DNA of 64,000 nucleotides from an uncultured Verrucomicrobiae bacterium (GCA_963726745.1 CAVSDR010000002.1:128001-192000); one strand, 5' to 3'; positions 4,347 through 62,138 are shown, numbered from the stretch's first letter. The notes: generated by a model from the letters alone, not told the origin. Made by a program: numbers and translations.

Positions 4347-5020
4347 GAACTCGCCGGCTGTTTTTGGTTTCGTTAGGCAGTGCCGCCCTGGCGGCGATCG
4401 CCGTCCGCGCGGCGGACGATCTTCCGCAGGGTCAGGCCTTCGCGCGCTACGAGCCGATGATGAACCGCTCGCCTTTCGCGGTCGCCACCGCGGCCACCCC
4501 GCCGCCGCAGGCGCCGAACTTCGCCAAGGATCTCTACATCGCGAACGCGGCGAAATTGGCCGACGAAGCGGTGGTCACGCTTTCCTCAAACGTCGACAAG
4601 AGCCTCAAGGAATTCCTCAGCACCAAGGCCCCGAATAAATCCGGCTACAGCATTTCGAACATCGAGTGGTCCGATCGCGTCGGCGCGACCAAGGTCACGA
4701 TCACGAAAGACGGGCAGGTTGCGACCTTGTCCTTTAATGAAGCGCTGCTGGCGCAACCAGTCGGCAATCATGCCATGCCGCAGCAACCGCAAGCCCAGCC
4801 GCAAGTGCAAGCCGTGCCGCAAGGCATCCCCGCCCAGCAATTGCCCGCGCCCGGCCAGCAGATCCCGCAGCCGGCGCCGAACTTCAATCAAACCACCATC
4901 CGTCCCGCGCCGATTCCGACATTGCCCACGCCGCCACCGCGCGTCCGCGGCGTCATCCGTCGCAACGCCGACAACGTTCCCGCCACGCCCGATCCCCAAG
5001 GCTTAATGCAGGAGCAGTAA
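4343..5020 (+). CDS. Exported hypothetical protein with Gln/Pro-rich tail (possible GspC/PilP-like)
   Basis: Signal peptide, RSPF motif, low-complexity QP tail; ATG overlaps the previous stop. Confidence 0.55.
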   Translation: MRTRRLFLVSLGSAALAAIAVRAADDLPQGQAFARYEPMMNRSPFAVATAATPPPQAPNFAKDLYIANAAKLADEAVVTLSSNVDKSLKEFLSTKAPNKSGYSISNIEWSDRVGATKVTITKDGQVATLSFNEALLAQPVGNHAMPQQPQAQPQVQAVPQGIPAQQLPAPGQQIPQPAPNFNQTTIRPAPIPTLPTPPPRVRGVIRRNADNVPATPDPQGLMQEQ

Positions 5021-5046
5021 GCGCGCGGCGCCGAAGTGCTCCGCAC

Positions 5047-5084
5047 GTTATCTCGAGCGCAGCGAAGCGAAGTCGAGAGACCCC
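5047..5084. repeat. REP-like short palindromic element
   Basis: GTTA-TCTCGA-GCGCAGCGAAGCGAAG-TCGAGA-GACCCC hairpin between convergent genes. Confidence 0.45.
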
Positions 5085-5150
5085 GAGGCTGTAGGGCGAC
5101 TTCCGCAAGTTGCCGGCTAAATTAGCCAGCAAGATCACCGCGGAGAGACG

Positions 5151-5609
5151 CTAGTTGCCCCAGTTGTCGTCGGCCGTGTCCGGCTTCCGATCGGGCCCCG
5201 CGGAATAGAGATCGAACCCTGTCGGGTTCTTCCGGCCGGGGGAATAGTAGATGTAGTTATTTCCCCACGGGTCCTGCGGCAGTTCCTTGAAGAGCTGATA
5301 CCAGCGCGTCGGCTTCGGATCAGTTTCCGGTGGCGTCACCAGCGCCTGCAAGCCCTGCTCCGTTGTCGGCAGGAAACCGTTTACGCTTTCGTAAAGCTTC
5401 AGTTGAGTCGAGATCGATTGGACATCGGCGCGCACGCGCATGTCCTTGGCCACGCCGGTGGTGTTGCCCAATTTGGAAACGGCCACGCCCAGAATGATCA
5501 CGATGATGCCCACTACGAGCATGATCTCGAGGAGGGTAAAACCGGCCTGCCCGCGACGAGCGGAGCGCAGGGTTATTTCGGATCGAGAAGGTAGTCGGAT
5601 TTTTCCCAC
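5151..5609 (-). CDS. gspG: Major pseudopilin GspG
   Basis: AG|FTLLEIMLVV; PTTEQGLQALV, DPWGNNY and DLYSAGPD motifs; exact start uncertain. Confidence 0.95.
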   Translation of the reverse strand: MGKIRLPSRSEITLRSARRGQAGFTLLEIMLVVGIIVIILGVAVSKLGNTTGVAKDMRVRADVQSISTQLKLYESVNGFLPTTEQGLQALVTPPETDPKPTRWYQLFKELPQDPWGNNYIYYSPGRKNPTGFDLYSAGPDRKPDTADDNWGN

Positions 5610-6631: not shown

Positions 6632-6646
6632 CGCGGCGATGCTAAC

Positions 6647-7900
6647 TCAACGCGGACGCACCTGTAAACTGCTCGTCATTTCAAAGACGGCGCTGAGGAT
6701 GCTGAAGACAACGAAGCCGACCACGATCGCGATGATCACGATGATCACCGGGGGGATGAGCGCAGAGATGATTTTAACCGTGCGATCGAGCTCACGCTCG
6801 TAGACATCGGCGATCGCGCCCATGGTCTGCGCGAAGTGGCCGGTCTGCTCACCCACCGCCATCATGTCGGTGAAGAGTTCCGGGAAAAGCTCCTGCTGCG
6901 CGAGCGCCACCGAGAGATTCGCGCCGTCGATCACCGCCCTGCGCACGTCTGTTAGTTTCCGCTCGAGGTAACGGTTGCCGGCAATCTCGGTGACCAGGTC
7001 GAGCGCTTTCAAGAGCGGTACGCCGTTCTCCATCAAGGTCCCGAGCGTGCGCGAAAATTGCGCGTAGTAGCTGTGCTTGATCACCCGCCCATAGCCCGGC
7101 GCGGAGAGCCGCAGACGATCGAGCGCGACTCGCCCTTCCTCCGTGCGCGCGTAGGCGCGCACGCCGATAAACGTGCCCACGGCCACGATCGCCGCGATCC
7201 ACCAATAAGTCGTTAGGGCATGGTGAAAGGCCACCAGCAGGCGCGTGGGCAGCGGCAGCTCGCCGCCATTCTGCGACATGAACTGCGTCAGCTGCGGAAC
7301 CATGAAGGTGATGAAAATAGTCATCAAGATGGCGCCGGCGACTGCCAGAAAGGCGGGATAAATCAGCGCCTGTTGCACCCGGTCGCGCAGATTTTTTGCC
7401 TGCATCAAATGCTCCACCAAACGGCGCAAAATCTCCGAGAGCGCACCGCTCGCTTCGCCCGCGGCGATCAGGTTCACGTAGATCGCCGGGAAGATGCGCG
7501 GGAAATCGCGCAAGGCCTGAGAGAAGCTGCGGCCATCGATCAGCGCCTGGTGCAGGGCCGAGGTCATCTGCTGCACGCGCGGATGCTTCAGGCGCTTCCG
7601 CAAAACCGCAAGCCCTTCGTCCAAGGTCATACCTGCCTGGAGCAGATGCGCGAGTTGCTCGGTAAAGATGAGGAGCTGGGTGTGCGGAATCTTGAGGCTC
7701 TGCGTCGCCGCGGGCACCACCGCGCTGGCCGCCGGCGCGCTGGTTACGACTTGCGGCGCGCCGCCGATCGCCTCGATGCGCACCGGGATGTATTGCAGTT
7801 GCTCGATTTGCCGGATGGCCATGCCGCGATCCGCGCAATCGAGCGTCCCTTCCACCAGGCCGCCCTGCAGGTTGCGCGCGCGATAGGAAAACTGTGGCAT
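6647..7900 (-). CDS. gspF: T2SS inner membrane platform protein GspF/PilC
   Basis: Start MPQFSYRA at 7900; FTEQLAHLLQAG, AGEASGAL, ALIYP and VGEQTG motifs. Confidence 0.95.
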   Translation of the reverse strand: MPQFSYRARNLQGGLVEGTLDCADRGMAIRQIEQLQYIPVRIEAIGGAPQVVTSAPAASAVVPAATQSLKIPHTQLLIFTEQLAHLLQAGMTLDEGLAVLRKRLKHPRVQQMTSALHQALIDGRSFSQALRDFPRIFPAIYVNLIAAGEASGALSEILRRLVEHLMQAKNLRDRVQQALIYPAFLAVAGAILMTIFITFMVPQLTQFMSQNGGELPLPTRLLVAFHHALTTYWWIAAIVAVGTFIGVRAYARTEEGRVALDRLRLSAPGYGRVIKHSYYAQFSRTLGTLMENGVPLLKALDLVTEIAGNRYLERKLTDVRRAVIDGANLSVALAQQELFPELFTDMMAVGEQTGHFAQTMGAIADVYERELDRTVKIISALIPPVIIVIIAIVVGFVVFSILSAVFEMTSSLQVRPR

Positions 7901-7946: not shown

Positions 7947-10162
7947 CTAGGGCGCGGGCACTTCTGGCGCGAGGAGGAAACGCAGCTCCCGCTCGTATTC
8001 CGGCTTCGCCTTGGCGGCGGCTTCCGCAAGCGTCTTCGCGGCCTCGGTTTGCCCGGTGGATTGCGCGTAGACCGCAGCCAGCCATTGCCGCTCCGCCGCG
8101 TCGGGCGCGCCCGGGCGAATGAAGGCGTTCGACATCGCGAGCAAGGTCGCGGGCGCGAGGCGATCCCATTTGAACGGCGCCCCGCCATAGGGCGCAATGC
8201 GCAGGGTAATTTCCGCGCCGTTCGCGCCAACCACGCCTTGATAAGTCGTCGCGCCCACCGTCACCGGAGTCGCGATAGCGCCCGCCTTGCAGATCGGCGA
8301 TCAGGCGCGCCTTCCACTCGGTCAGCCAGGTCGGGCGGCGGCGGGCAAACTCCGCGGCGGCTTCCTTTTCATGCGCAGCGGTTTCCTCTTTTGCAAGGCG
8401 CTCGGCGCTGGTCGCGAGGCGCTGCGCTTCATCGTTGAGGAAGGCGCCGAGCGCCGCGTCGTCGCGCGCGCGCTCCTGCAGCGCGCGCAATTTTTCCAGG
8501 GCCGACTGCGCCACGGCCGCGGTCGTGAGGCGCTGCGGAATGGCCTTGGCCTCGGCATAGACAGCGTGATCCGCGAGGAACTTGCGCGCAAGCGGTTGAT
8601 AGTCGGCGATCCACTTTTGCTCGTTAGGCGGCGTCGCTCTCGGCGAATTTCCGCAGGTAAGCCGCGGCCTCGTCGAACTCGCGCAGCTGCCAGTCTTTCA
8701 CCCCGTAAAGGAAGAGCGCGAAACTGTTCCAGCCCGTGGCCTCGGCCTCGGCCGCGCCGCGCACCGGGCCGCTGCCGGCGAGGGCGCGCGCGGTCTCGGT
8801 GAAGAAGCGCGGGAGATCGGACTCGGCCGGCTTCGCAGAGAAGGCGGCGCTCCGCTGGAGCTGCTCGAAGCTGTCGCGCGCGGGCGCGATTTTAGCCTGC
8901 AACATCTGGGCGAGCCCGAGGTGGAGCCGGGCCCAGTTTTGCAACGGTTGTCGGTCGCCCGCTTCCTTGATTAGCTTCGTGAAGCTGGCGGTCGCGGCTT
9001 CCAATTTGCCGTCTAATAATTGCCGGCGCGCTTCCTCGTAGCGCTGCTGGAGCGCGGTGCTGTTGTCGGCCCCCGGCAGCGGGCGTGCCCGGCGCCACCG
9101 CGGCGGACGGGGCCGCCGGCTTGCGATGAAGCCAATAATAGCCGCCGCACCCGCGAGGAGCGCCAGACTAACGAGACCAATGACCATCGGCTTGAGCCAC
9201 GAGCGTTCCGCCGGCGCGCTCCCATCCGCCGGGAGCGCGCGCCAGGCGCGGCGCAATTCATCGACCAGGTGCGCGTAGGAAGTAAAGCGGTTCGCCGGGT
9301 CCGGGCGGAGCATGCGGTCGATCACGAGCGCGGTTTCCTTCGACACTTCCGGCGCGAGCGAGCGCAGGCTGGGCGGCGCGCTTTTTAGCCGGCGCAATTC
9401 CGCGGCCGAGGTGGTCTCCGCTTCCATCGGCGGGCGGCCGGCGAGCGCGTGAAAGAGGGTCGCGCCGAGGCTGTAGATATCGCTGCGAAAATCCTCCGGC
9501 GCATTGTCCAGGCGCTCAGGTGCGACATAGTAGGGCGTGCCCCAAATCTCCTGCTGCGCTTCGGCGTGTTGTTCCGCCGCGCCGGCGAGACCGAAATCGC
9601 CGATCTTCGCGGTCCGCGCATCGGAGAAGAGGATGTTGGCCGGTTTAACGTCGCGATGAATCAAACCCTTTTCATGCGCCGCCTCCAGCCCGCGCGCGAC
9701 CTGGATGCCGGTCTCGAGCACCTGCCGCTCGGGCACGCGAGCGTGCTGCGCCATCAAGTCGTCGAGGCTCCCGTGATCGACCAATTCCATCACCAGGTAG
9801 ATCTGCCCGTGCGCCGTGCCCGAGGAGTAAAGCTGGACGACGTTGGGATGATTGATCGCCGCAGTCACGCGCGCTTCCTGTTCCAAACGCGCCGCCTCCG
9901 CGGGATCGGCGCTCAAATCTTTACGCAGCAACTTGAGGGCAACGAAGCGGCCCAGCCGCGTGTCCTGCGCCTTGTAAACCGAGCCCATCCCGCCCACGCC
10001 GAGGGTTTCGGTGAGCTTGAAATTATCGAAGGCCGTCTCGACGCGGAATTTTTCCCCGCACTGCGGGCAGGCGATCTTCGCCAGCGGTTCCGCTTCGGAG
10101 ACATCGACCGCAGTGCCGCACGCGGGACAGGTTTGCGGCGGCACTTGGAGAGCGTCGGGCAT
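7947..10162 (-). CDS. Membrane Ser/Thr protein kinase with N-terminal zinc ribbon and helical C-terminal region (frameshifts near 8635 and 8275)
   Basis: CPAC/CPQC; GVGGMGSV, VALK, HRDVKPAN, DFG, APE; TM helix; past the apparent stop at 8624 another frame reads PPNEQKWIADYQPLARKF into ORFs 7744..8514 and 7947..8264. Confidence 0.85.
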
Positions 10163-10217: not shown

Positions 10218-11121
10218 ATGATTGAATTACTCGTTCCCCGGGAACGCGCCGGCCTGCGGCTGGATCGCTTCCTCGCGCTGGAATTGCCGGATTTTTCGCG
10301 CTCGCGCCTGCAGGCGTTGATCGAGGGAGGATTCGTTAGGCTAAACGCCGCGGTGCCGCGCACGCGCGAAATCGTGAAGACGGGCGATGCGGTGACGCTG
10401 GAAGTGCCGGCGCCGGAAAAGATCGAGGCCGAGGCGGAAGAGATCGCGCTGCAAATTCTTTTCGAGGACGACGATCTCCTGGTGCTGGACAAGCCCGCGG
10501 GGATGGTGGTGCATCCGGGCGCGGGCAACCGCGAGCACACGCTGGTGAACGCGCTCCTGCACCATTGCACCGCGCTTTCCGGCATTGGCGGAAAGGAGCG
10601 GCCGGGGATCGTCCATCGTCTCGACAAGGAAACCAGCGGCTGCCTGGTGGTGGCGAAGAACGACCAGGCGCACCGCGAACTTTCGCGGCAATTTGCCGCG
10701 CGCACGATGACGAAGACTTATCTCGCGCTGGTCGCGGGGCGACTCGAAAAAAGCCAGCGGCACGATCGACGCGCCGATTGCGCGGCACCCGATCCATCGG
10801 CAGCGAATGGCGATCGCGCGCTCGACCCGTGGGCGCTCCGCGCGGACCGATTACAAAGTGGTGCGCGCGGGCACCAGCGCGAGCCTGGTGGAGTGTGCGC
10901 TGCACAGCGGACGGACGCACCAGATCCGGGTGCACTTGCATCATCTTGGGCATCCGGTTTTAGGCGACAAGCTCTACGGCGCGCGCTTGGCGAAAGCCTA
11001 TCCACGCCAAATGCTGCACGCTTGGCGGCTGGGGTTCACGCACCCGACAACGGGTGAAGCGATGCAGTTCGAAGCGCCGCTGCCGGCGGACTTCAACGAC
11101 GCGCTCGAGCTTCTGGACTAG
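10218..11121 (+). CDS. rluD: RluA/RluD family 23S rRNA pseudouridine synthase (frameshift at A-run near 10750)
   Basis: S4 domain RLDRFLA...SRSRLQ; DKPAGMVVHP, RPGIVHRLDKETSG; GRTHQIRVH and LHA in the second frame. Confidence 0.9.
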
Positions 11122-11178: not shown

Positions 11179-12048
11179 TTAGGCGGCCTGCCGGCGGCGC
11201 AGGAAGATCGCCCCGCCGATCAAGCTCACCGCGAGCAGCGCGTAGGTCGAAGGCTCCGGGACTACGGCGATGTCGCGCAGCGCTGCGCCGTTGAGCGTGC
11301 TCACGGGCGTAAGCACCGCGGTGGTGAGGTTAAGCGTGTAGAGCGAATTGCCGCTCGAGAAGTAGGCGGTGTTCGTGCTGCCGCCACCGTGGTGAGCACG
11401 TCGAGACCGGTGATGCCATTGAGCGCATCAAACATCACTCCACCGAGCATGAGCGTGCCGACGGTCGTGAGCGTGGAGAACTGCGGCGCGGTCGATGTGG
11501 AGGATGAGCGCGTTCAGGGTGGCGTCGATGCTGTAAAGCGCGGTCGAAGCGGGCCCGGCGATGTTGTTCGTGTAAGCCGCGGCGACCAGGTTCGGGGTCG
11601 CGCCTTGATTCGGATCGCCCGCGGCGAAGGTGAAGGCTCCATCCGAGGTCACCACGCCAGTTCCGGGCGTGAGGCGGAAGTTATTCGTGCCGGCGAAAGA
11701 CGCGCAGGCGGTTAGCCGGCGGGATTGAAGTCAATCACCGTCGCTCCGGGGACGGCGTTGTTAACGTCGAGCGTGGCCGCGCCCGTGGAACTCAAAGTGT
11801 AGAGCGATCCGCTCGAACCCATGCCGTAGAGGAGGCCGTTGCTGGAGGAGAAGTAGTCGATCCCGATCAGGCTATCGCCAGCATTCAGTCCCGTGATCGG
11901 GACGGTCGTAGGAACGGAAGCCAGGGGAGCTATAGAAGGAGAGGGAGGTCCCGGCAGCGCCGAGACCCACGAGTGACTGCGCCTGCGCGAAGCCGGCCAG
12001 GCCGACCAAGAGGAGAGCGGAGGTAAGGCTAACGAGTAGTTTTTTCAT
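11179..12048 (-). CDS. DUF4394-like surface protein with PEP-CTERM sorting signal (several frameshifts)
   Basis: Signal peptide MKKLLVSLTSALLLVGLAGFAQA; IDFNP and AAAYTNN motifs; C-terminus read by hand: VVPEPSTYALLAVSLIGGAIFLRRRQAA*. Confidence 0.8.
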
Positions 12049-12127: not shown

Positions 12128-13465
12128 TTAGGCGCGCGCCGGCGCCGGATCTTTTTCTTCAGGCGAGCGAAGCAAAAAGAAGGCAGTCGCGACCAGGGGC
12201 GGCAGGATAATGATGCCGCGCATCCAGAGTTCGGCGTGCCAGGGCAGGAGGAAGAGGCGCTCGTTCCAGAAGAGGAAGTAGGCGAAGAGCGTAACGGAGA
12301 GCATTTGCCAGGGCTGCGCCCCGCGCCAGGCGGCCAGCGGAAGGATCCAGGTGAGATACCATGGGTGCAGGACCGGACTGAGAATGAGGGCAATCCCGAG
12401 CACCCAGAGCATCCCGCGTCGCCAATTGCGAAAGAAGACGAGCGAGAGCAGGAGCACGGCGACGACGATGACGACATTATACTGGTAGTTCTTTTGCCGG
12501 ATGTTCGGCCAGACGGTCTCCTCGATGATCCACCAGAAGAGATCGTTCAAGCGGGTGACGTAGGCGAAGTTGCCTAACGACTCCCAGATGTCGATCTGCG
12601 GATAGCCGTAGAGCAAACTCAACCCGCCCGGGATGGCCGCGCTCAGGAGCAGGGCGGGGGACCGCCCGCGGAGTGCGAAAACAGCCAGCGGAATGAGCAG
12701 GACGGGGATGAGCTTGATCGAAATCGCGACCCCGAAGAGCGCCGCCGCGCCGAGCGCCAGGAGCCACCGCTGCCGCGCGTCCGGTGCGCTCTCCTGCCGG
12801 ACGAGCAAGAGGATGCCGCCGAGCATGGGCAGGATCATGAGGCTGTCGAAATGCGCCGCGCCGGCAAAGCTGTAGAGCACCAGCGGATTCCAGGCATACC
12901 ACGCGGCCTGCGCATAACGTCCCGCGCCCGGAAGCAGGAGCAGGAGAAGGCCGGCGGTGGCCAGATCGGCCGCGGCGAAGAGGAGCTTGTAGACCAGCGG
13001 GCTCCCGGTCACGCGGCTTAACCCCGCGAAAAGCAGTTCGGTGCCCGGCGGATAAATCGCGCGGAAGTCGCGGTGGTTGATCTTGTAGAACTCGGGAAAG
13101 GTCGCGCGCAGCGGCGCAAGGGTGACGTCGTCCGGCGCGGTCACGTAAGGATTGAATCCGGCCTGCTGGATTTTGCCTTCCCATTGGTAACGCCAGAAGT
13201 CGTCGCCCGGTTCCAGGGGCAAAACGACCAGCCGCAAGGCAATGGCCACGGCCCAAAAGAGGGCTGCCTGTTTCCGCGGCGCTCAGCCATTCCGGGAAAG
13301 CGCCGGCCGCGAAGAGAAATGCGACCCCGCAGGCCATCCCCGTCGCGACGAAGCGCACCGGCATTTCCTGCAGGCGCCAATCGTCGAAAAGATTCGAGCG
13401 TCGCAGCCAGGGCGAACTCGCAGGCGAGCGCGCACGACGAAGCGAAGCAGCAGCGCCCGACGCAT
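12128..13465 (-). CDS. GT-C / GT87 (DUF2029)-like membrane glycosyltransferase (5' part frameshifted)
   Basis: DDFWRYQWEG, GFNPY, IYPP, YAWNPL, HFD and HPWY motifs; multiple TM helices; N-terminus pieced together across frames from the ATG at 13465. Confidence 0.75.
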
Positions 13466-13469
13466 CGCT

Positions 13470-18456: not shown

Positions 18457-19161
18457 GTGGCGAGGAAATCAAATGGCGGGAAACCATACGAGCGCACCTT
18501 ATCGCTCCGTGAGCTCATGCCGGCGGCGCCTTTTGCGGATGGGCTCGGTTTGGCAGCGGTGCCCATCCGAGGTGAGGGGCCATCCCGGTGCAGTGAGCGT
18601 CGTTTTGGCAGCGGACGGAGCGCGCTTGTTATCACCTTACTGGCGGCGATCGCTTTTGGCGGCGGACTCATCCTTGCGCTGGTCCCGGCGCGCGGTGGGG
18701 GTCGCCCGAGCCTGATGGCCGGGCGCGAAGCCGAGGTGATCTATCTCCCGCCGGCGCGGACCCACGCCGTGGCCGGGGAAAGGGCCAGACCCGGCCTGCC
18801 TGACCTGGTTTTTGCGCAGCGTGCGCTCGTTAGCCAGCAAGTTGGAAGCGTGCTGTCTTCTCCCGATTCAACGCCATGGAAATCGAGCGACGCGAAGTCG
18901 TCCGAGGCCGGCCAGGTCGCCGCTTCGGCACGCCTCCAATACGAGACCTTGCGGGAGCATTACCTCGAGGCGACGCAGTTCGCCGCGAACGGAACCTGGC
19001 GCGCTGGTGGCCAGGGAAACGCCGACGGTGGATCGACTTCCGCGGGCTTCGAGGCCGTGCAGATCGCGGCGATTCCGGAAGTCCCGGCGGTTGGGCCGGT
19101 CGTTGCGGGACTGCTCGCGCTCATCGCCTGGCGGCATCGCCGCCAATCAAGGCGCGGCTAA
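18457..19161 (+). CDS. Hypothetical protein with degenerate PEP-CTERM-like C-terminus
   Basis: Hydrophobic segment near the N-terminus; ends AAIPEVPAVGPVVAGLLALIAWRHRRQSRRG; start uncertain. Confidence 0.55.
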   Translation: MARKSNGGKPYERTLSLRELMPAAPFADGLGLAAVPIRGEGPSRCSERRFGSGRSALVITLLAAIAFGGGLILALVPARGGGRPSLMAGREAEVIYLPPARTHAVAGERARPGLPDLVFAQRALVSQQVGSVLSSPDSTPWKSSDAKSSEAGQVAASARLQYETLREHYLEATQFAANGTWRAGGQGNADGGSTSAGFEAVQIAAIPEVPAVGPVVAGLLALIAWRHRRQSRRG

Positions 19162-23495: not shown

Positions 23496-23501
23496 GATTC
23501 G

Positions 23502-24248
<747 letters not shown>

Positions 24249-38043: not shown

Positions 38044-38059
38044 GCGCTCGTTAGCCGGC

Positions 38060-39871: not shown

Positions 39872-39874
39872 TCG

Positions 39875-42686: not shown

Positions 42687-42694
42687 CGAGACGG

Positions 42695-51848: not shown

Positions 51849-53291
51849 GCTACCTCGAGCTGCTGCGCTTGACCGCGCCCGAGGGCACGCTGCTGGTGAG
51901 CGCGCTGGCTATTTTGGCCGTTGGCCTAACGAGTCCAGGACGGAGCGGCTTGATCGCGCTGCTGGCAGCGGCGGGGGTTGCGCTGGCTCTTGGGGCCGTT
52001 TGGACGCTGCCCGCGCAGGCGACGCTCCTCGGCGGGATGCTGGTCGTTTCGCCGCTCAGCTCACTCCTGAAGATGGTCTGCCTGGTGCTCGCGCTGGGCG
52101 CGATTTTGCTGGGTGCGCCGGGGCGGCAGCACGCGGAATTCGTAGGGCTGACTTTGCTCGCGACGATCGGCCTGCTCCTGCTCGTGGGGAGCGAAGAACT
52201 GCTGATGATCTTCATCGGGCTCGAGCTCACCGGGCTCTCGCTTTATGTCCTCACCGCGTGGGACCGCGAGCGCGCGGCCTCGGCGGAGGCGGGGCTGAAG
52301 TATTTCCTTTTTGGGAGCACTGCCAGCGCTTTCACGCTCTTCGGCTTGAGCCTGGTCTATGGAATGTGCGGGAGCACCAGCCTCGCCGGGATCTCCTCGA
52401 GCCTGGCGGCGCAAACCCTTTCGCCGCTCCTGGCCGCGGGCCTGGTCATGACCACGGTCGGTTTTGCCTTCAAGATCGCGGCTGCGCCCTTCCATCTCTG
52501 GGCGCCGGACGCGTATGAAGCAGCGCCCGTCGCAGGCGCCGCTTTCATCGCCTCGGCCTCGAAGGTCGCGGCTTTCGCGGTTCTGGGAAAGCTGCTCCTG
52601 GCCGGCTTCGCCCCAATGCGCGGAAGCGCGGATTGGCAGGCGTTTGCCGCCGGATGGGCGCCGCTGCTCGCAGTGCTGGCGGCGTTCTCGATCCTGCTCG
52701 GGAGCCTGGTGGCGCTGGCGCAAAAAAATCTCCGCCGCCTGTTGGCTTACTCGGCGGTGGCGCATGCGGGCTACACTTTGATCGGACTGGTGGCGGGTGG
52801 CCGCGAGGGCTTTCGCGGCCACGCTTTTCTACACCACGAGCTACGCGCTTACCTTGCTGGGAGCGTTTGGCGTGGTGGGGATCGTGCAGCGCGCGACCGG
52901 CGGCGACGACTTCGCGCAATTCGCCGGCTTGCGCACGCGCTCCCCGCTGCTCGCGGGCTGCCTCGCGATCTCGTTGCTCTCGTTAGCCGGGCTCCCGCCA
53001 CTGGCCGGTTTTTTCGGGAAGTTTTATCTTTTCGCGGCCGCACTGCGCGCCGGGGAAAATCACGGCCTGCTCTGGCTGGTGGCGGTAGCGCTGCTGGGAA
53101 GCCTGGTCTCGCTCTATTATTACCTGATGGTCTTGAAGGCCATCCTGGTCGACCCCGCGCCGCCGGAGGCGCCACTCGTTCGGGCGAATCCCGCGCAAGC
53201 CATCTTGCTGGCTATCCTGGCGGGCTTGACGGTGTTCCTGGGCGTCTTCCCGGGGCCGTGGCTGCGCGCGCTTTTACAGGCGCTGCCGTAG
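51845..53291 (+). CDS. nuoN: Complex I subunit NuoN (frameshift near 52815)
   Basis: EAGLKYF, FKIAAAPFHLWAPDAY, RLLAYS; SLAGLPPLAGFFGKF and YYYL in ORF 52797..53291. Confidence 0.92.
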
Positions 53292-56226: not shown

Positions 56227-57341
56227 ACCCACCCGATCACACCATCTCCCGGCGTGCCTTTGCCCGTTTGTTAGGCGCAGGCGCGGCCCTGGCCGTCACT
56301 GGCCCGAAATTTTCTTTGGCGCGGGAGGCAACGCCGGCCGCGGCTAGTGGCGTGGTGCGCCTTAGCTCGAACGAGAATCCGTATGGTCCGTCGCCGCGGG
56401 CGCTCGAGGCGATGCGCGAGGCCTTTGCCATCGCCAACCGTTATCCCTTCGCGGATGAAGAGAAATTAGCCGACGCCTTGGCAAAACTTTACGCCGTGGA
56501 GCGCGCGCAGGTGTTGCTGGGCGATGGCTCGGGCGAGATTTTGAAGCTGGCGGCGGTCGCCTTTACCGGACCGAATGATCGCCCGTTAGTCGCCGCTGAT
56601 CCGACTTTCGAGGCGATCCTGAAACATGCCGCCGTGAGCGGCGCGGAGGTGGTAAAGATTCCCCTAACGAGCGGTTACGCGCACGACCTGGAGAAAATGT
56701 CCTCCGCGGCGAAGAGCGGCCTGGTTTATCTCTGTAATCCAAACAATCCGACTGCGAGCATTACGCCGAAGGCGGCCGTGCGGCAGTTCCTCGCCAAGTT
56801 GCCGGCAACTACCACCGTGCTGGTGGACGAAGCCTACGCGCACTACGCGGAAAGCCCGGAGTTCGAGAGCGTCGTGCCGCTGATTGCGGATCATCCCAAC
56901 CTGATCGTCACGCGGACATTTTCGAAAATCTATGGAATGGCGGGATTGCGTTGCGGTTTTGCCCTGGGGCAGAAGGAGATGATCGGAAAAATGGCGCGGC
57001 ACCAGCCCTCAAACAGCGTCAACTGCATGGCCCTGGCGGCGGCGGTCGCAAGCCTGGCGGATGGCGCGCAGGTGACCGAGGGAAAGCGCCGCAACACGGA
57101 AGTGCGGCGGTTCGTGAGCGCTGAGCTGGCGGGTCTGGGCTACGAGCTGATTCCATCGGAAGCGAACTTCATCATGTTCGACCTCAAGCGGCCGGTGGTG
57201 CCGGTGATCGCGGCGTTAAAAGAACGCAAGGTCCAGGTAGGCCGCCTTTTCCCGACGCTGCCCAATCACCTGCGCTTGACCATTGGCACGCGTCCGGAGA
57301 TGGAGGCTTTCCTGGCCGCCTTCCGCGTGGTGATGGCTTGA
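56223..57341 (+). CDS. HisC-like PLP aminotransferase with Tat-like signal
   Basis: SRRAFARLLG; LSSNENPYGP, CNPNNPT, VDEAY, RTFSKIYGMAGLR. Confidence 0.88.
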   Translation: MNPPDHTISRRAFARLLGAGAALAVTGPKFSLAREATPAAASGVVRLSSNENPYGPSPRALEAMREAFAIANRYPFADEEKLADALAKLYAVERAQVLLGDGSGEILKLAAVAFTGPNDRPLVAADPTFEAILKHAAVSGAEVVKIPLTSGYAHDLEKMSSAAKSGLVYLCNPNNPTASITPKAAVRQFLAKLPATTTVLVDEAYAHYAESPEFESVVPLIADHPNLIVTRTFSKIYGMAGLRCGFALGQKEMIGKMARHQPSNSVNCMALAAAVASLADGAQVTEGKRRNTEVRRFVSAELAGLGYELIPSEANFIMFDLKRPVVPVIAALKERKVQVGRLFPTLPNHLRLTIGTRPEMEAFLAAFRVVMA

Positions 57342-58134: not shown

Positions 58135-58500
58135 ATGCCCAAACCTACTGGCGCGTCGTTCACGCGTCGCGCTCCCGACAATATCACTGAAGAGTTGGTC
58201 GCCGTTCTTTCCTCGAAATCCTCTTTCGAATTCAAGGCGCTTTTCGAAATCATTTTTTCCAATCTGCGGGAGCGGAATGCAGCCAGTGGGGGCGAGGAAA
58301 TGCTGCGCCTGCGCGCCTATGAGAAACTGCAAAGTCTCGTTAGCCAGGGAGCGGTCAACCGCACGGTCAACGGCGCGGTGAAGAAATACAAAGGCGTGAG
58401 TGCCCGTCTTTCCGTCCTCGCGGCCGAGCAGAAAGTGCTGCGTGCGGAGTGGGATCAGCGCGCGCTGGCCAAGGCTTCGGCCGCAGCCGCGGCCAAGTAA
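58135..58500 (+). CDS. Hypothetical protein, possibly winged-helix
   Basis: Basic 121-aa ORF containing GGEEMLRLRAYEKLQSLV. Confidence 0.65.
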   Translation: MPKPTGASFTRRAPDNITEELVAVLSSKSSFEFKALFEIIFSNLRERNAASGGEEMLRLRAYEKLQSLVSQGAVNRTVNGAVKKYKGVSARLSVLAAEQKVLRAEWDQRALAKASAAAAAK

Positions 58501-58518: not shown

Positions 58519-59718
58519 GTGAAAACGCTCTTCCTCACGAACGAGTATCCGCCAAACGTCTACGGCGGGGCTGGCGTCCACGTCGACTATTTGTCGCGCG
58601 AACTCGCGCAGCTGATGTCGGTGGAAGTGCGCGCATTTGGGACGCAGGATGCGCAGAGGGGGAACCTGCGTGTGCGCGGCTTTTCGGTCGATCCGGCGCG
58701 GTATCGCTGCCCTGAGCAACTGCGTTCGGTCTTTGGCGCCATCGAGCGGTGCACGGACTTCAATGCCGCCGGGATCGATGCCGATGTGGTGCATTGCCAC
58801 ACTTGGTACAGCCATTTTGGCGGCATCCTGGCGAAGCTGAATTATGGACTTCCGCTCGTCATCACGGTGCATTCGCTCGAGCCGCTGCGGCCATGGAAGC
58901 GCGAGCAACTTGGCGGCGGTTACGATTTTTCCGTGTGGCTGGAAAAGACCGCGCTCGAGATGGCCGATGCGGTCATCGCGGTCTCCGGCGAGACGAAGCG
59001 TGACCTCGAACGCTTGTTCTCCATCCGCCCGGAGCGTCTCCATGTGATCCATAACGGGATCGACCTGGACGAGTATCGTCCCGTGAAAACAACCGACGCG
59101 CTCACGCGTTACGGGATTGATCCGGCGCGGCCGTTCGTGCTCTTTGTCGGCCGGATTACCCGGCAAAAAGGAATTGTCCACCTGGTGCGCGCGATTGCCT
59201 CGATGGATCCCGGCTTCCAGGTGGTGCTCTGCGCCGGCGCGCCGGACACGCCGGCGATTGCCGCCGAGATGGACGCAGCAGTGGCGGAGGCGAGCGCGAA
59301 AAGAGACGGCGTCATCTGGATTCGCGAGATGGTCGACAAGCCGACCGTGATCGAGCTTTACTCGCAGGCGGCGGTCTTCTGCTGTCCCTCGGTCTACGAA
59401 CCGTTCGGCATCATCAATCTCGAGGCGATGGCCTGCGAGACCGCGGTGGTGGCAAGCGCGATCGGCGGCATTCCCGAAGTGGTGGTCGATGGCGAGACCG
59501 GCTTCCTGGTTCCGCTGGAACTAAAGGAGGGCACGTTCGAACCGCGCGACCCGGAGCGTTTCGCGCGCGACCTGGCGGCGCGAATCAACCAGTTGATGTC
59601 GAATCCGGCGCAGCGCGCAGAGTTCGGCCGGGCCGGCCGGAAACGGGCGGTGGAGCACTTCAGCTGGCGCGCGATCGCGGCCGAGACGGCCAAACTTTAC
59701 GCAACTTTAACTCGTTAG
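58519..59718 (+). CDS. glgA: GT4 glycogen synthase / maltose-1-phosphate synthase (GlgA/GlgM type)
   Basis: EYPPNVYGGAGVHV, HTWY, HSLEPLRPWKREQLGGGY, YEPFGIINLEAMAC. Confidence 0.9.
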   Translation: MKTLFLTNEYPPNVYGGAGVHVDYLSRELAQLMSVEVRAFGTQDAQRGNLRVRGFSVDPARYRCPEQLRSVFGAIERCTDFNAAGIDADVVHCHTWYSHFGGILAKLNYGLPLVITVHSLEPLRPWKREQLGGGYDFSVWLEKTALEMADAVIAVSGETKRDLERLFSIRPERLHVIHNGIDLDEYRPVKTTDALTRYGIDPARPFVLFVGRITRQKGIVHLVRAIASMDPGFQVVLCAGAPDTPAIAAEMDAAVAEASAKRDGVIWIREMVDKPTVIELYSQAAVFCCPSVYEPFGIINLEAMACETAVVASAIGGIPEVVVDGETGFLVPLELKEGTFEPRDPERFARDLAARINQLMSNPAQRAEFGRAGRKRAVEHFSWRAIAAETAKLYATLTR

Positions 59719-59773
59719 GCGGCGACTTCGGCGCTGAAAAGTGTAGGGTGCTGACGCCGGAACGGCCCACCTC

Positions 59774-60877
59774 ATGTTTGTCGATCGAATCAAAGTTTTC
59801 GCCCAGGCGGGCAATGGCGGGCGCGGCTGCGTCAGTTTTCGGCGGGAGAAATTCGTTCCGCGCGGCGGTCCCGATGGCGGGGACGGGGGGCAGGGGGGCG
59901 ACATTATCCTGCAGGCCGACGTGCACACGGATAACCTGGCGAACCTTTTCTACGAGCCGATTATTAAGGCCAAGCCCGGCGGCCATGGCATGGGCAAGAA
60001 GATGCACGGCCGCGGCGCGCCCTCGAAGATCGTGAAAGTGCCGGTGGGCACCGTGGTTTACCGCGCGCCTGCGCCGCCAGCCCCGCTGGAAGAAGTGCGG
60101 GACGAGAACGTGACTTTCGTTCCGGAAGTGGAGGCACCTTTCGAGCCGGAGCAGCTCGCCGACCTGACCGATGATGGCCAGCAATTTGTCCTCTGCGCCG
60201 GCGGTCGTGGCGGCAAGGGGAACGTGCATTTCAAGAGTTCGCGTAACCGCGCACCGATCCAATACACCGAGGGCGAGGAAGGCGAGCAGGGGCATTTCCT
60301 GCTCGAACTGCGCACGATCGCGGATGCCGCACTGGTGGGTTATCCGAACGCCGGCAAATCGACACTGCTCGGCAAACTTTCCGCGGCTCATCCGAAGGTG
60401 GCCGCCTATCCTTTCACCACCTTGCGGCCGAGCGTGGGCGTGGTGGAACTCGACGACTATCGCCGCGCGACCGTGGCCGACATTCCCGGCTTGATCGAGG
60501 GCGCGCATCGCAACGTGGGCTTGGGGCACGATTTTCTGCGCCATATCACGCGCTGCCGTTACCTGCTTTTCGTCCTCGATATTGCGGGAAGCGAAGGGCG
60601 GCATCCGATCGAGGATCTGCAGAGCCTTCGCCGCGAGATCGATCTTTACGATGAGCGCCTCTCGCAGCGGCCGTGGGCGATCTTGGCGAACAAGATCGAC
60701 TTGCCCGGAAGCGAGGAAAATCTCGAGCAACTGCGGCAGCGTTTTCCGGCGGTGAAAGTGCTGTCTATTTCTGCACGTGAAGAGCGGGGCATCGCCGATT
60801 TAAAAGAACACCTGGCCCAGTGGCTGACGACCGCCGAAGCCTCGGAAGCGGCGACGGGTTTGGCCACCGCTGGGTAA
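59774..60877 (+). CDS. obg: GTPase Obg/CgtA
   Basis: FVD, GGPDGGDGG, GYPNAGKST, YPFTT, DIPG, NKID. Confidence 0.96.
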   Translation: MFVDRIKVFAQAGNGGRGCVSFRREKFVPRGGPDGGDGGQGGDIILQADVHTDNLANLFYEPIIKAKPGGHGMGKKMHGRGAPSKIVKVPVGTVVYRAPAPPAPLEEVRDENVTFVPEVEAPFEPEQLADLTDDGQQFVLCAGGRGGKGNVHFKSSRNRAPIQYTEGEEGEQGHFLLELRTIADAALVGYPNAGKSTLLGKLSAAHPKVAAYPFTTLRPSVGVVELDDYRRATVADIPGLIEGAHRNVGLGHDFLRHITRCRYLLFVLDIAGSEGRHPIEDLQSLRREIDLYDERLSQRPWAILANKIDLPGSEENLEQLRQRFPAVKVLSISAREERGIADLKEHLAQWLTTAEASEAATGLATAG

Positions 60878-60881
60878 ATCG

Positions 60882-62138
60882 ATGAGGGATTCGGGACACA
60901 ACGGCGATCATTCCGGCGAGCGGGTCGTGGCCAGCTACTGCACCACTTTCCTCAAGCGCGAGATGCTGCACATCTATCGCCAGGTCACGGCGCTGGAGAG
61001 CTACCGCACTTTTGTGATGACGAAGTCGCTCCAGAACACGGAGCTTTTCCCTTTTAGCGACATCGAGCTAATCCCGAAACCACGGCGCAACCCGGTCCGG
61101 CACGGCTGGCTCAAGTTCATCCGGCGGAAGCCGCCGATCGTCTACCGCGGTGAATACCAAATGCTCACCCGCCTGCTTGAACGCCGGGGAGCGGACTTGA
61201 TGCACATTTATTTCGGGCACACCGGGGTGCATCTCTTGCCGTTCATTGAGCGCTGGGACAAGCCTTGCGTGGTTTCCTTTCACGGCGCGGACGTCGCGCG
61301 CAAGGCGGACATCCGCGATTACGCGCTGAAATTAAAAACGCTCTGTCACGCGGTCCCGCTGGTGCTGGCGCGGTGCCAGTCGTTAGCCGACCGTTTGATC
61401 GAGCTCGGCTGCCCGCCGGAACGCCTGCGCATTAGCCGCACAGGCGTCCCGCTGGCGCAATTCCCGCATGTCCGCCGGGAGGCGCCGGCCGATGGGCGCT
61501 GGCGGCTTCTGCAAGCTTGCCGGCTAATTCCCAAGAAAGGCGTCGCGACCACGCTTTGCGCCTTTGCGATTTTCCAGAAAGAATTCCCGCAGGCGGAATT
61601 GATCATCGCCGGGAAAGGCCCGTTGCAGGCGCACCTCGAAGAGCTGGCCGAGGAACTCGGGATCGCAGCGAAGGTGCAATTTCCCGGGTTTTTGTCGCAG
61701 AGCGAATTGCGCGAGCTTTACGCGAGCGCACATCTGTTCATTCACCCGAGCGAAACCCCGCCCGATCAAAATCAGGAAGGCATTCCGAACTCCGTCCTCG
61801 AGGCGATGGCTACGGGGCTGCCGGTGCTGGGCACGCGGCATGGCGGCATCCCGGAGGCAGTCGAGCATGGGCGGGCCGGCTTTCTCGTGGAAGAGCGCGA
61901 TTTCGAGGCGCTGGCGCACGCGATGAAAGGGATTGCGCGCTCTGCCACTGGCTTCCGGGAGATGGGTTTGCTCGGGAGTGAATTCGTTCATGCGCACTTC
62001 GAGCAGCGCGCGCAGATCCGGCAACTCGAGAGCTACTATGATGAGGCGGTGACGCTCGCAGCGGAGGCGCGTGGCCATTCTGCCCGGTCCGCAACGGTCC
62101 CGCCGGCGGCGTTTCCGGCGCACGCCTCGGCAAAGTAA
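60882..62138 (+). CDS. GT4 glycosyltransferase (WcaL-like)
   Basis: SFHGAD, RLIPKKG, EGIPNSVLEAMATGLPV, HGGIPE. Confidence 0.88.
   Translation: MRDSGHNGDHSGERVVASYCTTFLKREMLHIYRQVTALESYRTFVMTKSLQNTELFPFSDIELIPKPRRNPVRHGWLKFIRRKPPIVYRGEYQMLTRLLERRGADLMHIYFGHTGVHLLPFIERWDKPCVVSFHGADVARKADIRDYALKLKTLCHAVPLVLARCQSLADRLIELGCPPERLRISRTGVPLAQFPHVRREAPADGRWRLLQACRLIPKKGVATTLCAFAIFQKEFPQAELIIAGKGPLQAHLEELAEELGIAAKVQFPGFLSQSELRELYASAHLFIHPSETPPDQNQEGIPNSVLEAMATGLPVLGTRHGGIPEAVEHGRAGFLVEERDFEALAHAMKGIARSATGFREMGLLGSEFVHAHFEQRAQIRQLESYYDEAVTLAAEARGHSARSATVPPAAFPAHASAK

What the first reader, a model, noticed from the sequence alone, without database searches (positions are those of the whole stretch)
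4370..61388. The word is written into proteins in several frames and brings in rare TTA/CTA codons
Seen: sense frame TCG-TTA-GSC gives recurring S-L-G/A peptides (VSLG 4370, ESLG 12572/15025/40803, QSLG 20772, LSLG 31068, DSLG 36539, ISLG 43298, WSLG 46148, VSLG 47981, SSLG 50098, NSLG 51345, LSLA 52980, QSLA 61380). The reverse word gives P-N-E/D (24238, 33019, 39218, 49722) or L-T through CTA-ACG (7210, 34733, 37481, 51924, 56662). A further frame gives V-R/V-S (10333, 19898, 22090, 48995, 58337). These genes otherwise use mostly CTC/CTG for Leu. Inference: selection or molecular drive acts on the DNA word rather than the peptide, as known for DUS/USS.
Basis: partly seen in the sequence, partly recalled or inferred. 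Interest (0 to 1): 0.72.

Follow-up and report, generated by a model that had tools for sequence, protein, structure and literature searches.

The report
Hyper-abundant DNA word rewrites codons
A nine-letter DNA word is written about 1,300 times through this soil bacterium's genome, where it forces rare codons, changes amino acids and supplies stop codons; it likely serves as a self-recognition tag for DNA uptake, a habit known so far from only two other bacterial families.

Summary
Confirmed and extended. The word is TCGTTAGGC (reverse GCCTAACGA). The window holds 35 TCGTTAGSC copies against 0.5 expected. The 3.4-Mb genome holds 1,312 exact copies.

- **Refutation test fails:** the word encodes 450 of 779 S-L-G peptides (3.6 expected), 231 of 554 x-L-T-x, 219 of 334 x-P-N-E/D and 76 of 456 x-V-R-x.
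- **Rare codons:** TTA is 2.8% and CTA 1.4% of Leu codons.
- **Same flanks everywhere:** the flanking bases are alike in all four frames and in spacers.
- **Substitution, not insertion:** 111 of 114 sites align without a gap to orthologues.
- **Proteins were changed:** SLG and PNE rank 4th and 3rd of 6,754 tripeptides by excess. The excess rises with word density across relatives.
191 of 3,014 genes take their stop codon from the word.

The pattern matches published work on uptake sequences and proteomes (PMC2817400). The reader protein and the function are untested. An integron link, Chi/KOPS-type polarity and peptide selection are disfavoured. This scan flagged the same word in other windows of this genome.

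The parts
4370..4378 (+). exact word, sense frame V-S-L-G, gene 4343-5020 (+)
7210..7218 (+). variant TCGTTAGGG, antisense frame A-L-T-T in T2SSF gene 6647-7912 (-)
8621..8629 (+). exact word; its reverse GCC-TAA-CGA gives the TAA stop of the Ser/Thr kinase gene 8624-10162 (-)
10333..10341 (+). exact word, frame F-V-R-L in a 359-codon + frame that runs into the pseudouridine synthase match
12027..12035 (-). variant TCGTTAGCC, no convincing frame (spacer or broken gene)
12572..12580 (-). exact word, E-S-L-G in a 384-codon open frame on - (coding score 51) missed by my gene caller
15025..15033 (-). exact word, E-S-L-G in glycosyltransferase gene 13141-16008 (-)
18827..18835 (+). variant TCGTTAGCC, L-V-S-Q in a weak gene call 18457-19161 (+), no Pfam hit
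19898..19906 (-). exact word, L-V-R-L in glucodextranase-like gene 19158-22049 (-)
20772..20780 (-). exact word, Q-S-L-G in the same gene
23499..23507 (+). exact word; reverse gives the TAA stop of ABC ATPase gene 23502-24248 (-)
24238..24246 (+). exact word, antisense frame V-P-N-E at the start of the same gene
25689..25697 (+). exact word in the spacer between divergent genes (25554 / 25784)
30061..30069 (+). exact word, V-V-R-R in XdhC-like gene 29985-30632 (+)
31068..31076 (+). exact word, L-S-L-G in MobA-like gene 30636-31199 (+)
33019..33027 (-). exact word, V-P-N-D in M3 peptidase gene 31250-33397 (+)
34733..34741 (+). exact word, S-L-T-S in phosphodiesterase gene 33402-34991 (-)
36539..36547 (-). 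exact word, D-S-L-G in gene 36386-36988 (-)
37481..37489 (+). exact word, R-L-T-T in 4Fe-4S (NuoI-like) gene 37026-37565 (-)
38048..38056 (+). variant TCGTTAGCC in the spacer just beyond the stop of the NuoD gene 38060-39163 (-)
39218..39226 (+). exact word, T-P-N-E followed by TGA at the end of the NuoC fragment 39214-39483 (-)
39872..39880 (+). exact word; reverse reads GCC-TAA-CGA-ATG, a stop followed by the ATG of ORF 39314-39871 (-)
40803..40811 (-). exact word, E-S-L-G in nuoA 40593-40973 (-)
42681..42689 (-). exact word; GCC-TAA gives the stop of the response regulator gene 42315-42686 (+)
43298..43306 (-). exact word, I-S-L-G in glutamate dehydrogenase 42695-44056 (-); 24 of 25 homologous loci have another residue in place of S
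46148..46156 (+). exact word, W-S-L-G in nuoH
47981..47989 (+). exact word, V-S-L-G in nuoL; 5 of 5 outgroup families have A-x-G
48995..49003 (+). variant TCGTTAGCC, F-V-S-L in nuoM
49722..49730 (-). variant CCCTAACGA, F-P-N-E in nuoM; 0 of 5 outgroups have P-N-E
50098..50106 (+). exact word, S-S-L-G in nuoM; 5 of 5 outgroups have S-I-G
51345..51353 (+). exact word, N-S-L-G in nuoN
51924..51932 (-). exact word, G-L-T-S in + ORF 51593-53320 (second NuoN-like gene, frame broken further on)
52980..52988 (+). variant TCGTTAGCC, L-S-L-A in the Pfam-supported frame 52797-53291 (+)
56662..56670 (-). variant CCCTAACGA, P-L-T-S in aminotransferase gene 56223-57341 (+)
58337..58345 (+). variant TCGTTAGCC, L-V-S-Q in gene 58135-58500 (+)
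59712..59720 (+). exact word; ACT-CGT-TAG gives the TAG stop of glycosyltransferase gene 58519-59718 (+)
61380..61388 (+). variant TCGTTAGCC, Q-S-L-A in glycosyltransferase gene 60882-62138 (+)
62144..62152 (-). variant TCGTTAGCC in the spacer just beyond the stop of gene 60882-62138

Best explanation
The word TCGTTAGGC is kept at the DNA level, not for the peptides it encodes. It is likely spread by a sequence-biased process, most plausibly preferential uptake and recombination of word-bearing DNA from kin, as with the uptake sequences of Neisseria and Haemophilus.

Shown:
- The word arises by base substitution wherever the protein tolerates it. It sits in all four frames that lack a stop (S-L-G, x-L-T-x, x-P-N-E/D, x-V-R-x), as the stop codon of about 6% of genes, and in spacers.
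- It overrides codon preference.
- It has replaced amino acids in housekeeping enzymes such as complex I subunits and glutamate dehydrogenase.
- It has raised proteome-wide SLG and PNE counts in step with word density.

Inferred:
- A protein reads about 14 bases (W-S-S-A-C-TCGTTAGGC), probably an asymmetric DNA receptor of the uptake machinery.
- Fragments that carry the word are then favoured at uptake and replace word-free alleles (molecular drive).
- Selection on protein function and on translation limits where the word can settle. That would explain the frame hierarchy and the use of stop codons and spacers in ribosomal protein operons.
For: Codon choice:
- Inside genes 976 words are seen against 12.1 expected from codon usage given the protein sequences.
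- Of compatible peptides, 58% of SLG, 66% of xPN[ED], 42% of xLTx and 17% of xVRx carry the word.
- The least-used frame needs the rarest codon, AGG, which is 1.2% of Arg codons.

DNA-level signal:
- Flanking preferences are the same in every frame class and in spacers.
- One-mismatch variants at core positions 1 to 7 number 0 to 121, against 1,312 exact copies.

Substitution, not insertion:
- 111 of 114 sites align to G002 orthologues without a gap.

Effect on proteins:
- SLG is 779 observed against 480 expected, and PNE 252 against 99. They rank 4th and 3rd of 6,754 tripeptides. The reversed controls GLS and ENP sit at expectation.
- The excess follows word density:
  - G030 (outgroup), 0.003 words per kb: SLG 0.466 and PNE 0.101 per 1,000 residues
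  - G002, 0.053 words per kb: SLG 0.464 and PNE 0.075
  - G000, 0.385 words per kb: SLG 0.784 and PNE 0.254
  - G024, 0.69 words per kb: SLG 0.885 and PNE 0.536
- Against G002, the N of PNE is conserved at 5 of 26 sites and the S of SLG at 25 of 52, while gene-wide identity is 0.688.
- At four aligned nuoL/M/N sites, 0 of 5 outgroup families have SLG or PNE.
- In glutamate dehydrogenase, 24 of 25 homologous loci have another residue at the S position.

Features shared with uptake sequences:
- Both orientations are equal (631 to 681), with no polarity in any 100-kb bin.
- There is no bias in position along genes.
- The word is raised in 24 of 24 genomes of the genus and stands at 19 or fewer copies in 16 of 16 genomes of other families.
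- Word-free stretches longer than 11 kb number 13 against 2.9 expected, and several have low G+C.
- Tripeptide enrichment of about twofold and strong frame bias are the published properties of USS and DUS (PMC2817400).
- ComEC, DprA and a weak ComEA-like match are present.
- A pseudopilin / T2SS-T4P-like cluster lies in the window.
Against: - No uptake or transformation data exist for this uncultured lineage, and no receptor has been identified.
- ComEC is found in 40 of 41 genomes searched, including 15 of 16 outgroup genomes that lack the word. It is therefore only permissive.
- The window's pilus-like cluster is equally conserved in word-poor and word-rich relatives.
- Spacing is not more even than random (CV 1.14).
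- Inverted pairs of the terminator type, common for DUS, are rare: 3 within 60 bp.
- Whole-peptide conservation at SLG sites (18 of 51) and xLTx sites (8 of 27) is not significantly below the general level (p = 0.20 and 0.43). Part of the accumulation is therefore silent, or sits at sites that vary anyway.
- Word sharing between G000 and G024 at conserved SLG sites (21, 4, 4, 5) fits independent saturation, so it says nothing about exchange.
- Gene calls come from my own simple caller. The relatives were sampled at 400 to 800 kb only.
Confidence: 0.5

Rival explanations
1. A HIP1-like word. The word would be the target of a DNA methyltransferase, repair or recombination system, and biased repair or selection for that system's function would make it hyper-abundant, without sequence-specific uptake.
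For: HIP1 of cyanobacteria is 15- to 300-fold over-represented, lies inside genes and is tied to orphan methyltransferases (abstracts of PMC5861425 and PMC4390886 seen in the listing). The two densest genomes of the genus, G013 and G024, each carry two Vsr matches.
Against: The word is not a palindrome and is 9 bases with a one-sided 5-base flank, unlike known methyltransferase-linked words. Vsr was not found in G000 (94.7% complete) or in 21 of 24 genus genomes. It does occur in 4 of 16 word-free outgroups. Methylation could not be tested.
Confidence: 0.2
2. A chromosome-function word. It would be a binding site for an abundant nucleoid, segregation or replication protein, kept by selection for many dispersed sites.
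For: The copies are exact, dispersed at about one per 2.6 kb, sit on both strands and are sharply specific. Short gaps under 200 bp are depleted (2.5% against 7.5% expected).
Against: Density varies 17-fold within one genus, from 138 to 2,412 copies, at similar protein divergence. That is hard to square with an essential structural role. Other families of the order do without the word. There is no replication-linked polarity, which excludes the Chi and KOPS type. Spacing is no more even than random.
Confidence: 0.15
3. An integron-related word. The last seven bases fit the attC/attI core GTTRRRY (motif recalled). The copies would then be secondary recombination sites made or used by an integron integrase.
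For: The word occurs in one-strand clusters 400 to 900 bases apart in outgroup G028, one of them beside an integron integrase (G028:C10).
Against: No integron integrase above the family cut-off was found in G000 or G024, both over 94% complete and word-rich. Only 1 of the 5 densest genomes has one. In contrast, 11 of 16 word-free outgroup genomes do. Only 16 attC-like inverted pairs of the 7-mer lie within 160 bases in G000. The specificity extends to TCG and further 5', outside the integron core.
Confidence: 0.05
4. Selection on the peptide or on translation. SLG, PNE or LT would be functional motifs, or rare TTA/CTA codons would slow ribosomes for regulation, as with bldA-dependent TTA codons in Streptomyces (recalled).
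For: The peptides recur, and the word brings rare codons that are each read by a single-copy tRNA.
Against: One of 144 synonymous spellings takes 58% of SLG sites. The same 9-mer with the same flanks occurs in three other frames, on the antisense strand, in spacers and as stop codons. The peptides are not conserved in outgroups.
Confidence: 0.02
5. An inserted mini-element, or an assembly or adapter artefact.
For: None beyond the exact repetition.
Against: Sites are in frame and align without gaps to orthologues (111 of 114). The word is raised in 24 independently assembled genomes of the genus.
Confidence: 0.01

Closest known systems
USS of Pasteurellaceae (9-base cores; Findlay and Redfield 2009, PMC2817400, sections 17-18 read)
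   Same: A 9-base non-palindromic core with weaker flanking preferences, present in hundreds to thousands of copies. Most copies lie inside genes, in both orientations and with strong frame bias. The encoded tripeptides are enriched about twofold, and sites tend to sit at poorly conserved residues.
   Different: The phylum differs (Verrucomicrobiota, order Chthoniobacterales by the titles of the nearest records). Every open frame needs a rare codon, whereas USS frame use follows preferred codons. About 6% of genes take their stop codon from the word. Uptake preference and a receptor are untested here.
DUS of Neisseriaceae, read by the minor pilin ComP (PMC3868556 and PMC3630211, listing and abstract starts only; Table 2 of PMC2817400)
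   Same: It behaves as a lineage-wide self word shared by related species at very different densities. One frame is closed by a stop codon, and the tripeptides are enriched.
   Different: DUS copies lie mostly outside ORFs (34.5% in ORFs, heading rows of PMC2817400) and often form inverted terminator pairs (recalled). Here about 74% lie wholly in genes, and only 3 inverted pairs occur within 60 bases. No ComP-like reader has been identified.
HIP1 (GCGATCGC) of cyanobacteria (PMC5861425, PMC4390886, listing and abstract starts)
   Same: It is a hyper-abundant exact word inside genes in a whole lineage, and its function was long unknown.
   Different: HIP1 is a palindrome tied to two methyltransferases. 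This word is asymmetric, and no such enzyme has been linked to it.
Integron attC/attI core site GTTRRRY (motif recalled)
   Same: The bases GTTAGGC fit that consensus. In outgroup G028 the 9-mer recurs in cassette-like one-strand arrays.
   Different: Abundance in ordinary genes does not follow the integrase. attC-like pairs are few in G000.
Chi and KOPS, strand-polarised chromosome words (recalled)
   Same: They are short, over-represented, non-palindromic words.
   Different: Those words are co-oriented with replication. This one is 631 to 681 overall and balanced in every 100-kb bin.

Membership tests
DNA uptake sequences (USS/DUS class) | Hundreds to thousands of copies of one 9-12 base word, far above chance and sharply specific | tested here: met
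   1,312 copies in 3.4 Mb, and 35 against 0.52 expected in the window. Core one-mismatch variants number 0-121.
DNA uptake sequences (USS/DUS class) | Both orientations, with no replication polarity | tested here: met
   631 + and 681 -, and balanced in all 100-kb bins of four contigs.
DNA uptake sequences (USS/DUS class) | Occurs inside genes with frame bias and enriches the encoded tripeptides (PMC2817400) | tested here: met
   Frame counts are 449, 228, 220 and 76. SLG is 1.62x and PNE 2.56x expectation, with flat reversed controls, and the excess rises with density across four genomes.
DNA uptake sequences (USS/DUS class) | Shared by related species and missing from more distant relatives and from foreign islands | tested here: met
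   Raised in 24 of 24 genus genomes (22 of 22 without the unpublished G001 and G008). 19 or fewer copies in 16 of 16 genomes of other families. 13 word-free stretches over 11 kb against 2.9 expected.
DNA uptake sequences (USS/DUS class) | Competent cells take up DNA with the word in preference to DNA without it | not testable with these tools
DNA uptake sequences (USS/DUS class) | A dedicated DNA receptor (ComP-type minor pilin or equivalent) and uptake machinery | tested here: inconclusive
   ComEC, DprA, a weak ComEA-like match and a pseudopilin cluster are present. ComEC is also in 15 of 16 word-free outgroups. The pilus cluster is equally conserved in word-poor relatives.
HIP1-type methylation-linked palindromes | Palindromic word recognised by methyltransferases | tested here: not met
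   The word is not its own reverse complement. Methylation was not testable.
Integron attC sites | Inverted core pair within one site, arrays next to an integron integrase | tested here: not met
   16 inverted 7-mer pairs within 160 bases in G000. No integrase above the cut-off in G000.
Chi / KOPS architecture words | Strong co-orientation with the replication direction | tested here: not met
   No polarity in any bin. The caveat is that GC skew is weak and replichores are not assigned.

The most novel reading that the evidence does not exclude
This is a third, independent family of DNA uptake sequences, in abundant uncultured soil Verrucomicrobia. Its drive is strong enough to override codon bias at about 1,000 sites, rewrite residues in respiratory complex I and glutamate dehydrogenase, and supply the stop codons of one gene in sixteen. 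That would mean self-selective natural transformation operates in a dominant soil lineage where no genetics exists.
Probability: 0.42. Interest if true: 0.85.

Novelty: new member of a known kind. Interest (0 to 1): 0.68.

Why it matters
Sequence-specific self words with this genomic signature are established in only two proteobacterial families. A third case, in an uncultured and abundant soil lineage, would widen where self-selective DNA exchange is thought to act.

It would also give a handle for engineering and tracking these bacteria. One could add the word to donor DNA, or use it as a lineage marker in metagenomes.

The coding imprint measured here is a quantitative record of how far a DNA-level drive can push against selection on proteins and on translation:
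- 58 to 66% saturation of compatible peptides
- use of rare codons in every open frame
- amino-acid replacements in core enzymes
- 6% of stop codons taken from the word, with C-termini often shifted

The 17-fold range of density within one genus offers a natural series for finding the protein that reads the word.

Tried and rejected
- **Sequencing runs:** only two soil-metagenome runs of one study were listed. They hold small shares (0.07 and 0.06) and are kept as contigs. No RNA holder was listed. I did not lay them, so nothing about population variation, habitat or expression is claimed.
- **Looking for a reader by differential presence:** the window's T2SS/T4P-like cluster is conserved at 67-73% DNA identity in word-poor (G002, G016, G019) and word-rich (G013, G024) genomes alike. 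ComEC is present in 24 of 24 genus genomes. Neither discriminates.
- **Maximal-order Markov k-mer scan of G002:** it was uninformative because sub-words are also enriched. I replaced it with an order-3 model, which found no rival dialect word in G002.
- **Gene conservation quartiles:** words per kb were 0.41, 0.24, 0.30 and 0.26, with no clear trend.
- **Position along genes:** flat.
- **Site sharing between G000 and G024 at conserved SLG sites:** consistent with independent saturation, so it is no evidence of inheritance or exchange.
- **Peptide selection, rare-codon regulation, inserted element and artefact:** rejected (see the rival explanations).
- **Paper searches:** the 9-mer is held by 130 papers, and the 20 listed were unrelated oligonucleotide uses by title and abstract start. 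'Udaeobacter' with uptake terms gave nothing on this by title. 'DNA uptake sequence' with 'Verrucomicrobia' gave 3 papers, none on this by title. I saw listings only, so absence from print is not proven.

Full report
**What the word is.** The sequences at all 28 cited coordinates share TCGTTAG followed by GC, CC, GG or CG, or the reverse complement.
- TCGTTAGSC occurs 35 times in the 64-kb window. The mean of 100 dinucleotide-preserving shuffles is 0.52 and the largest is 4.
- 43 of the window's 45 CGTTAG copies are preceded by T.
- The window is G000:C2:128001-192000 of a 3.41-Mb, 7-contig assembly with 63.7% G+C.
- Genome-wide the exact 9-mer occurs 1,312 times. It is the second most common 9-mer, although its four A/T bases are unusual for so G+C-rich a genome.
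- One-mismatch variants at positions 1 to 7 number 0 to 121. Only the last two positions are looser, with counts up to 240 and 134.
- A weaker flank extends 5': A/T at -5, A at -2 and C at -1.
- The nearest titled records for the window's glutamate dehydrogenase are Chthoniobacterales and Spartobacteria metagenome-assembled genomes at 82-85% identity.

**Frames.** I called genes with my own codon-model caller: 3,015 genes and 88% coding. In the window, 46 of its 57 calls have a Pfam hit at E <= 1e-5. The 1,312 copies divide as follows:

| Class | Copies |
|---|---|
| Sense, TCG-TTA-GGC = S-L-G | 449 |
| Antisense, nGC-CTA-ACG-Ann = x-L-T-x | 228 |
| Antisense, nnG-CCT-AAC-GAn = x-P-N-E/D | 220 |
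| Sense, nTC-GTT-AGG-Cnn = x-V-R-x | 76 |
| Spacers | 173 |
| Straddling a gene end | 166 |

The two remaining frames hold TAG or TAA.

- 24 fall in my gene calls.
- Three lie in long open frames with positive coding score that my caller missed: 10333, 12572 and 51924.
- 22090 lies between two minus-strand genes and is doubtful.

I computed, for every compatible peptide in the proteome, the chance that codon usage alone would spell the word. Codon usage was estimated with word codons masked.

| Peptide | Compatible sites | Carry the word | Expected |
|---|---|---|---|
| SLG | 779 | 450 | 3.6 |
| xLTx | 554 | 231 | 1.0 |
| xPN[ED] | 334 | 219 | 7.3 |
| xVRx | 456 | 76 | 0.24 |

- In the window alone, 11 of 13 SLG use the word.
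- TTA is 2.8% and CTA 1.4% of Leu codons. AGG is 1.2% of Arg codons. CTC plus CTG make 74.5% of Leu codons.
- The exact word holds 450 of 2,982 TTA codons and 233 of 1,473 CTA codons.
- 1,205 of 2,972 TTA codons are followed by GGC or GCC.
- Among SLG sites, spellings one base from the word are also raised (42 against 10.5 expected). These are mostly changes at the last base.
- Single-copy tRNAs for TTA, CTA and AGG are present.

**The signal is read as DNA.**
- The flank preferences recur in all four frame classes, in spacers and at gene ends.
- Orientation is balanced overall (631 to 681) and in every 100-kb bin of four contigs, whatever the sign of GC skew.
- Position along genes is flat.
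- Against 384 reciprocal-best orthologues in an 800-kb sample of G002, 111 of 114 word sites align without a gap. G002 is of the same genus, has a median amino-acid identity of 72.7% and carries 0.053 words per kb. The word therefore arises by substitution and not by insertion.

**Proteins have been changed.**
- SLG (779 against 480 expected from dipeptides) and PNE (252 against 99) rank 4th and 3rd of 6,754 tripeptides by excess. They stand behind only proline-rich linker peptides. The reversed GLS and ENP sit at expectation.
- The excess follows word density, while the reversed controls stay flat:

| Genome | Words per kb | SLG per 1,000 residues | PNE per 1,000 residues |
|---|---|---|---|
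| G030 (outgroup family) | 0.003 | 0.466 | 0.101 |
| G002 | 0.053 | 0.464 | 0.075 |
| G000 | 0.385 | 0.784 | 0.254 |
| G024 | 0.69 | 0.885 | 0.536 |

- At orthologous sites, G002 has the same whole peptide at 18 of 51 SLG sites, 8 of 27 xLTx sites, 2 of 26 xPN[ED] sites and 2 of 7 xVRx sites. General conservation is 0.451 for tripeptides and 0.382 for tetrapeptides.
- Only the PN[ED] class is significantly low (p = 8e-4). SLG and xLTx are not (p = 0.20 and 0.43).
- Residue by residue, the N of PNE is conserved at 5 of 26 sites and the S of SLG at 25 of 52, against 0.688 gene-wide.
- Flanks of ten residues on each side are slightly less conserved (0.632 against 0.688).
- Where G002 keeps SLG without the word, it mostly uses TCG-CTC-GGC, TCG-CTC-GGG or TCG-CTG-GGC. 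The change to TTA therefore needs two base changes.
- In the window's complex I genes, five outgroup families never have SLG or PNE at four aligned sites. They have A-x-G at nuoL 47981, S-I-G at nuoM 50098, x-P-[AEV]-x at nuoM 49722 and varied residues at nuoN 51345.
- In glutamate dehydrogenase, 24 of 25 homologous loci from many phyla have another residue where G000 has the S of SLG, mostly D, E or Q. The 25th carries TCGTTAGGG. Exact words occur only in four loci titled Chthoniobacterales, Spartobacteria or Verrucomicrobiae.
- Within the genus the same sites switch between word and non-word forms, together with amino-acid changes.

**Stop codons.**
- 191 of 3,014 genes end in the TAA (105) or TAG (86) of the exact word. 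313 end in that of the 7-base core.
- Window examples are the kinase (8621), the ABC ATPase (23499), the response regulator (42681) and a glycosyltransferase (59712). At 39872 the stop is followed by CGA and the next ATG.
- Genes ending ..TCGTTAG or ..GCCTAA share their C-terminus with the G002 orthologue in 6 of 29 cases, against 164 of 355 for other genes (p = 0.010). For the TAA class only six bases of the word were checked.
- In the ribosomal protein operon, 3 of 5 words sit at gene boundaries. This is a small sample.
- Words lie at 0.32 per kb in coding DNA and at 0.40 to 0.57 per kb in spacers.

**Distribution among relatives.**
- All 24 other genomes of the genus have more copies than the backwards control, but the counts range from 138 to 2,412.
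- 16 genomes of 15 other families of the order have 19 or fewer copies, below the control.
- These tallies include the unpublished G001 and G008. Without them the count is 22 of 22.
- G024 and G002 are equally distant from G000 in protein identity (73.5% and 72.7%). Yet G024 shares 32 of 64 aligned word sites and G002 shares 9 of 111.
- At SLG sites conserved in both G000 and G024, the counts (21 both, 4, 4, 5 neither) fit independent saturation.
- G000 has 13 word-free stretches over 11 kb against 2.9 expected, and several have low G+C.

**Mechanism.** What is shown is a DNA-level force that writes one exact word by substitution against codon preference and partly against protein conservation.

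The published properties of uptake sequences match:
- tripeptides about doubled
- strong frame bias linked to codon quality
- preference for poorly conserved positions

These come from PMC2817400 (abstract and sections 17, 18 read). A related paper, PMC2346458, was read as abstract only.

I therefore take biased uptake plus recombination as the most likely engine, at about even odds. Two points limit that reading. ComEC, DprA and a weak ComEA-like match are present, but ComEC is nearly universal in the order. The window's pseudopilin cluster does not differ between word-poor and word-rich relatives.

**Rivals.**
- *Integron link.* No integron integrase above the cut-off was found in G000 or G024. 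One was found in 10 of 25 genus genomes and in 11 of 16 word-free outgroups. Only 16 attC-like pairs occur in G000.
- *VSP-type repair.* Vsr was not found in G000 or in 21 of 24 genus genomes. The two densest genomes do carry it, which I cannot explain away.
- *Chi/KOPS type.* Excluded by the lack of polarity.
- *Peptide or rare-codon selection, insertion and artefact.* Excluded by the multi-frame, flank and orthologue results.

**Novelty.**
- My searches found no paper describing this word or an uptake-type word in Verrucomicrobia. I saw listings only.
- Earlier agents of this scan flagged the same word in other windows of this genome, and a related word in Gemmatimonadaceae.
My orthologue and proteome counts show that a large share of sites involve amino-acid change.

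**Limits.**
- The gene calls are my own.
- Relatives were sampled at 400 to 800 kb.
- Related genomes are not independent.
- Function is untested.

Noticed in passing
window 189-8264: A T2SS/T4P-like cluster: T2SSJ-like and T2SSK-like proteins, a PilM-like protein, a T2SSG pseudopilin, T2SSF, and several small proteins without Pfam hits that may be minor pseudopilins. It is conserved at 67-73% DNA identity in five genus relatives, whatever their word density.
   Followed up: partly
G000 genome-wide; window e.g. 18827, 58337: A second over-represented word family shares TTAGSC with the first. TTAGCC occurs 1,737 times and is followed by R-R-C and a T at +13. AATTAGCC occurs 423 times and TTAGCCAGC 479 times. 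It encodes E/K-L-A and also uses TTA.
   Followed up: partly
G000 and G002 gene sets: Stop codon use is nearly even in a 64% G+C genome: TAG 1,059, TGA 1,050 and TAA 905. In G002 it is 230, 231 and 230. The word explains only part of this.
   Followed up: partly
window 39214-39871, 51593-53320, 11872-13364: Genes appear split between frames: NuoC, a second NuoN-like gene and an unnamed minus-strand gene. These may be frameshifts, pseudogenes or assembly errors.
   Followed up: partly
G028:C7:94047-96651, C2:640583-643004, C10:119-1612: In a word-poor outgroup genome the same 9-mer recurs on one strand every 400-900 bases. One cluster lies beside an integron integrase, so these look like cassette arrays.
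   Followed up: no
G013, G017, G024: Vsr endonuclease matches occur in only 3 of 24 genus genomes, and these include the two with the most words.
   Followed up: no
G000:C7:60030-85007 and 12 other stretches: These are word-free stretches of 11-25 kb. Several have G+C of 0.58-0.61 against 0.637 genome-wide, so they may be acquired islands.
   Followed up: no
G000 genome-wide: Long tandem arrays of GCCAAC-type and CCGACT-type hexamers: about 140 and about 50 copies of the 12- to 14-mers.
   Followed up: no
G005:C12:409498-409950: In a word-poor relative, ComEC matches only profile positions 1-154 of 270, in a 427-residue frame inside a large contig. It may be truncated.
   Followed up: no
window 37026-40973 and 45074-53320: Complex I genes lie in two blocks on opposite strands, separated by a histidine kinase, a response regulator and glutamate dehydrogenase.
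   Followed up: no
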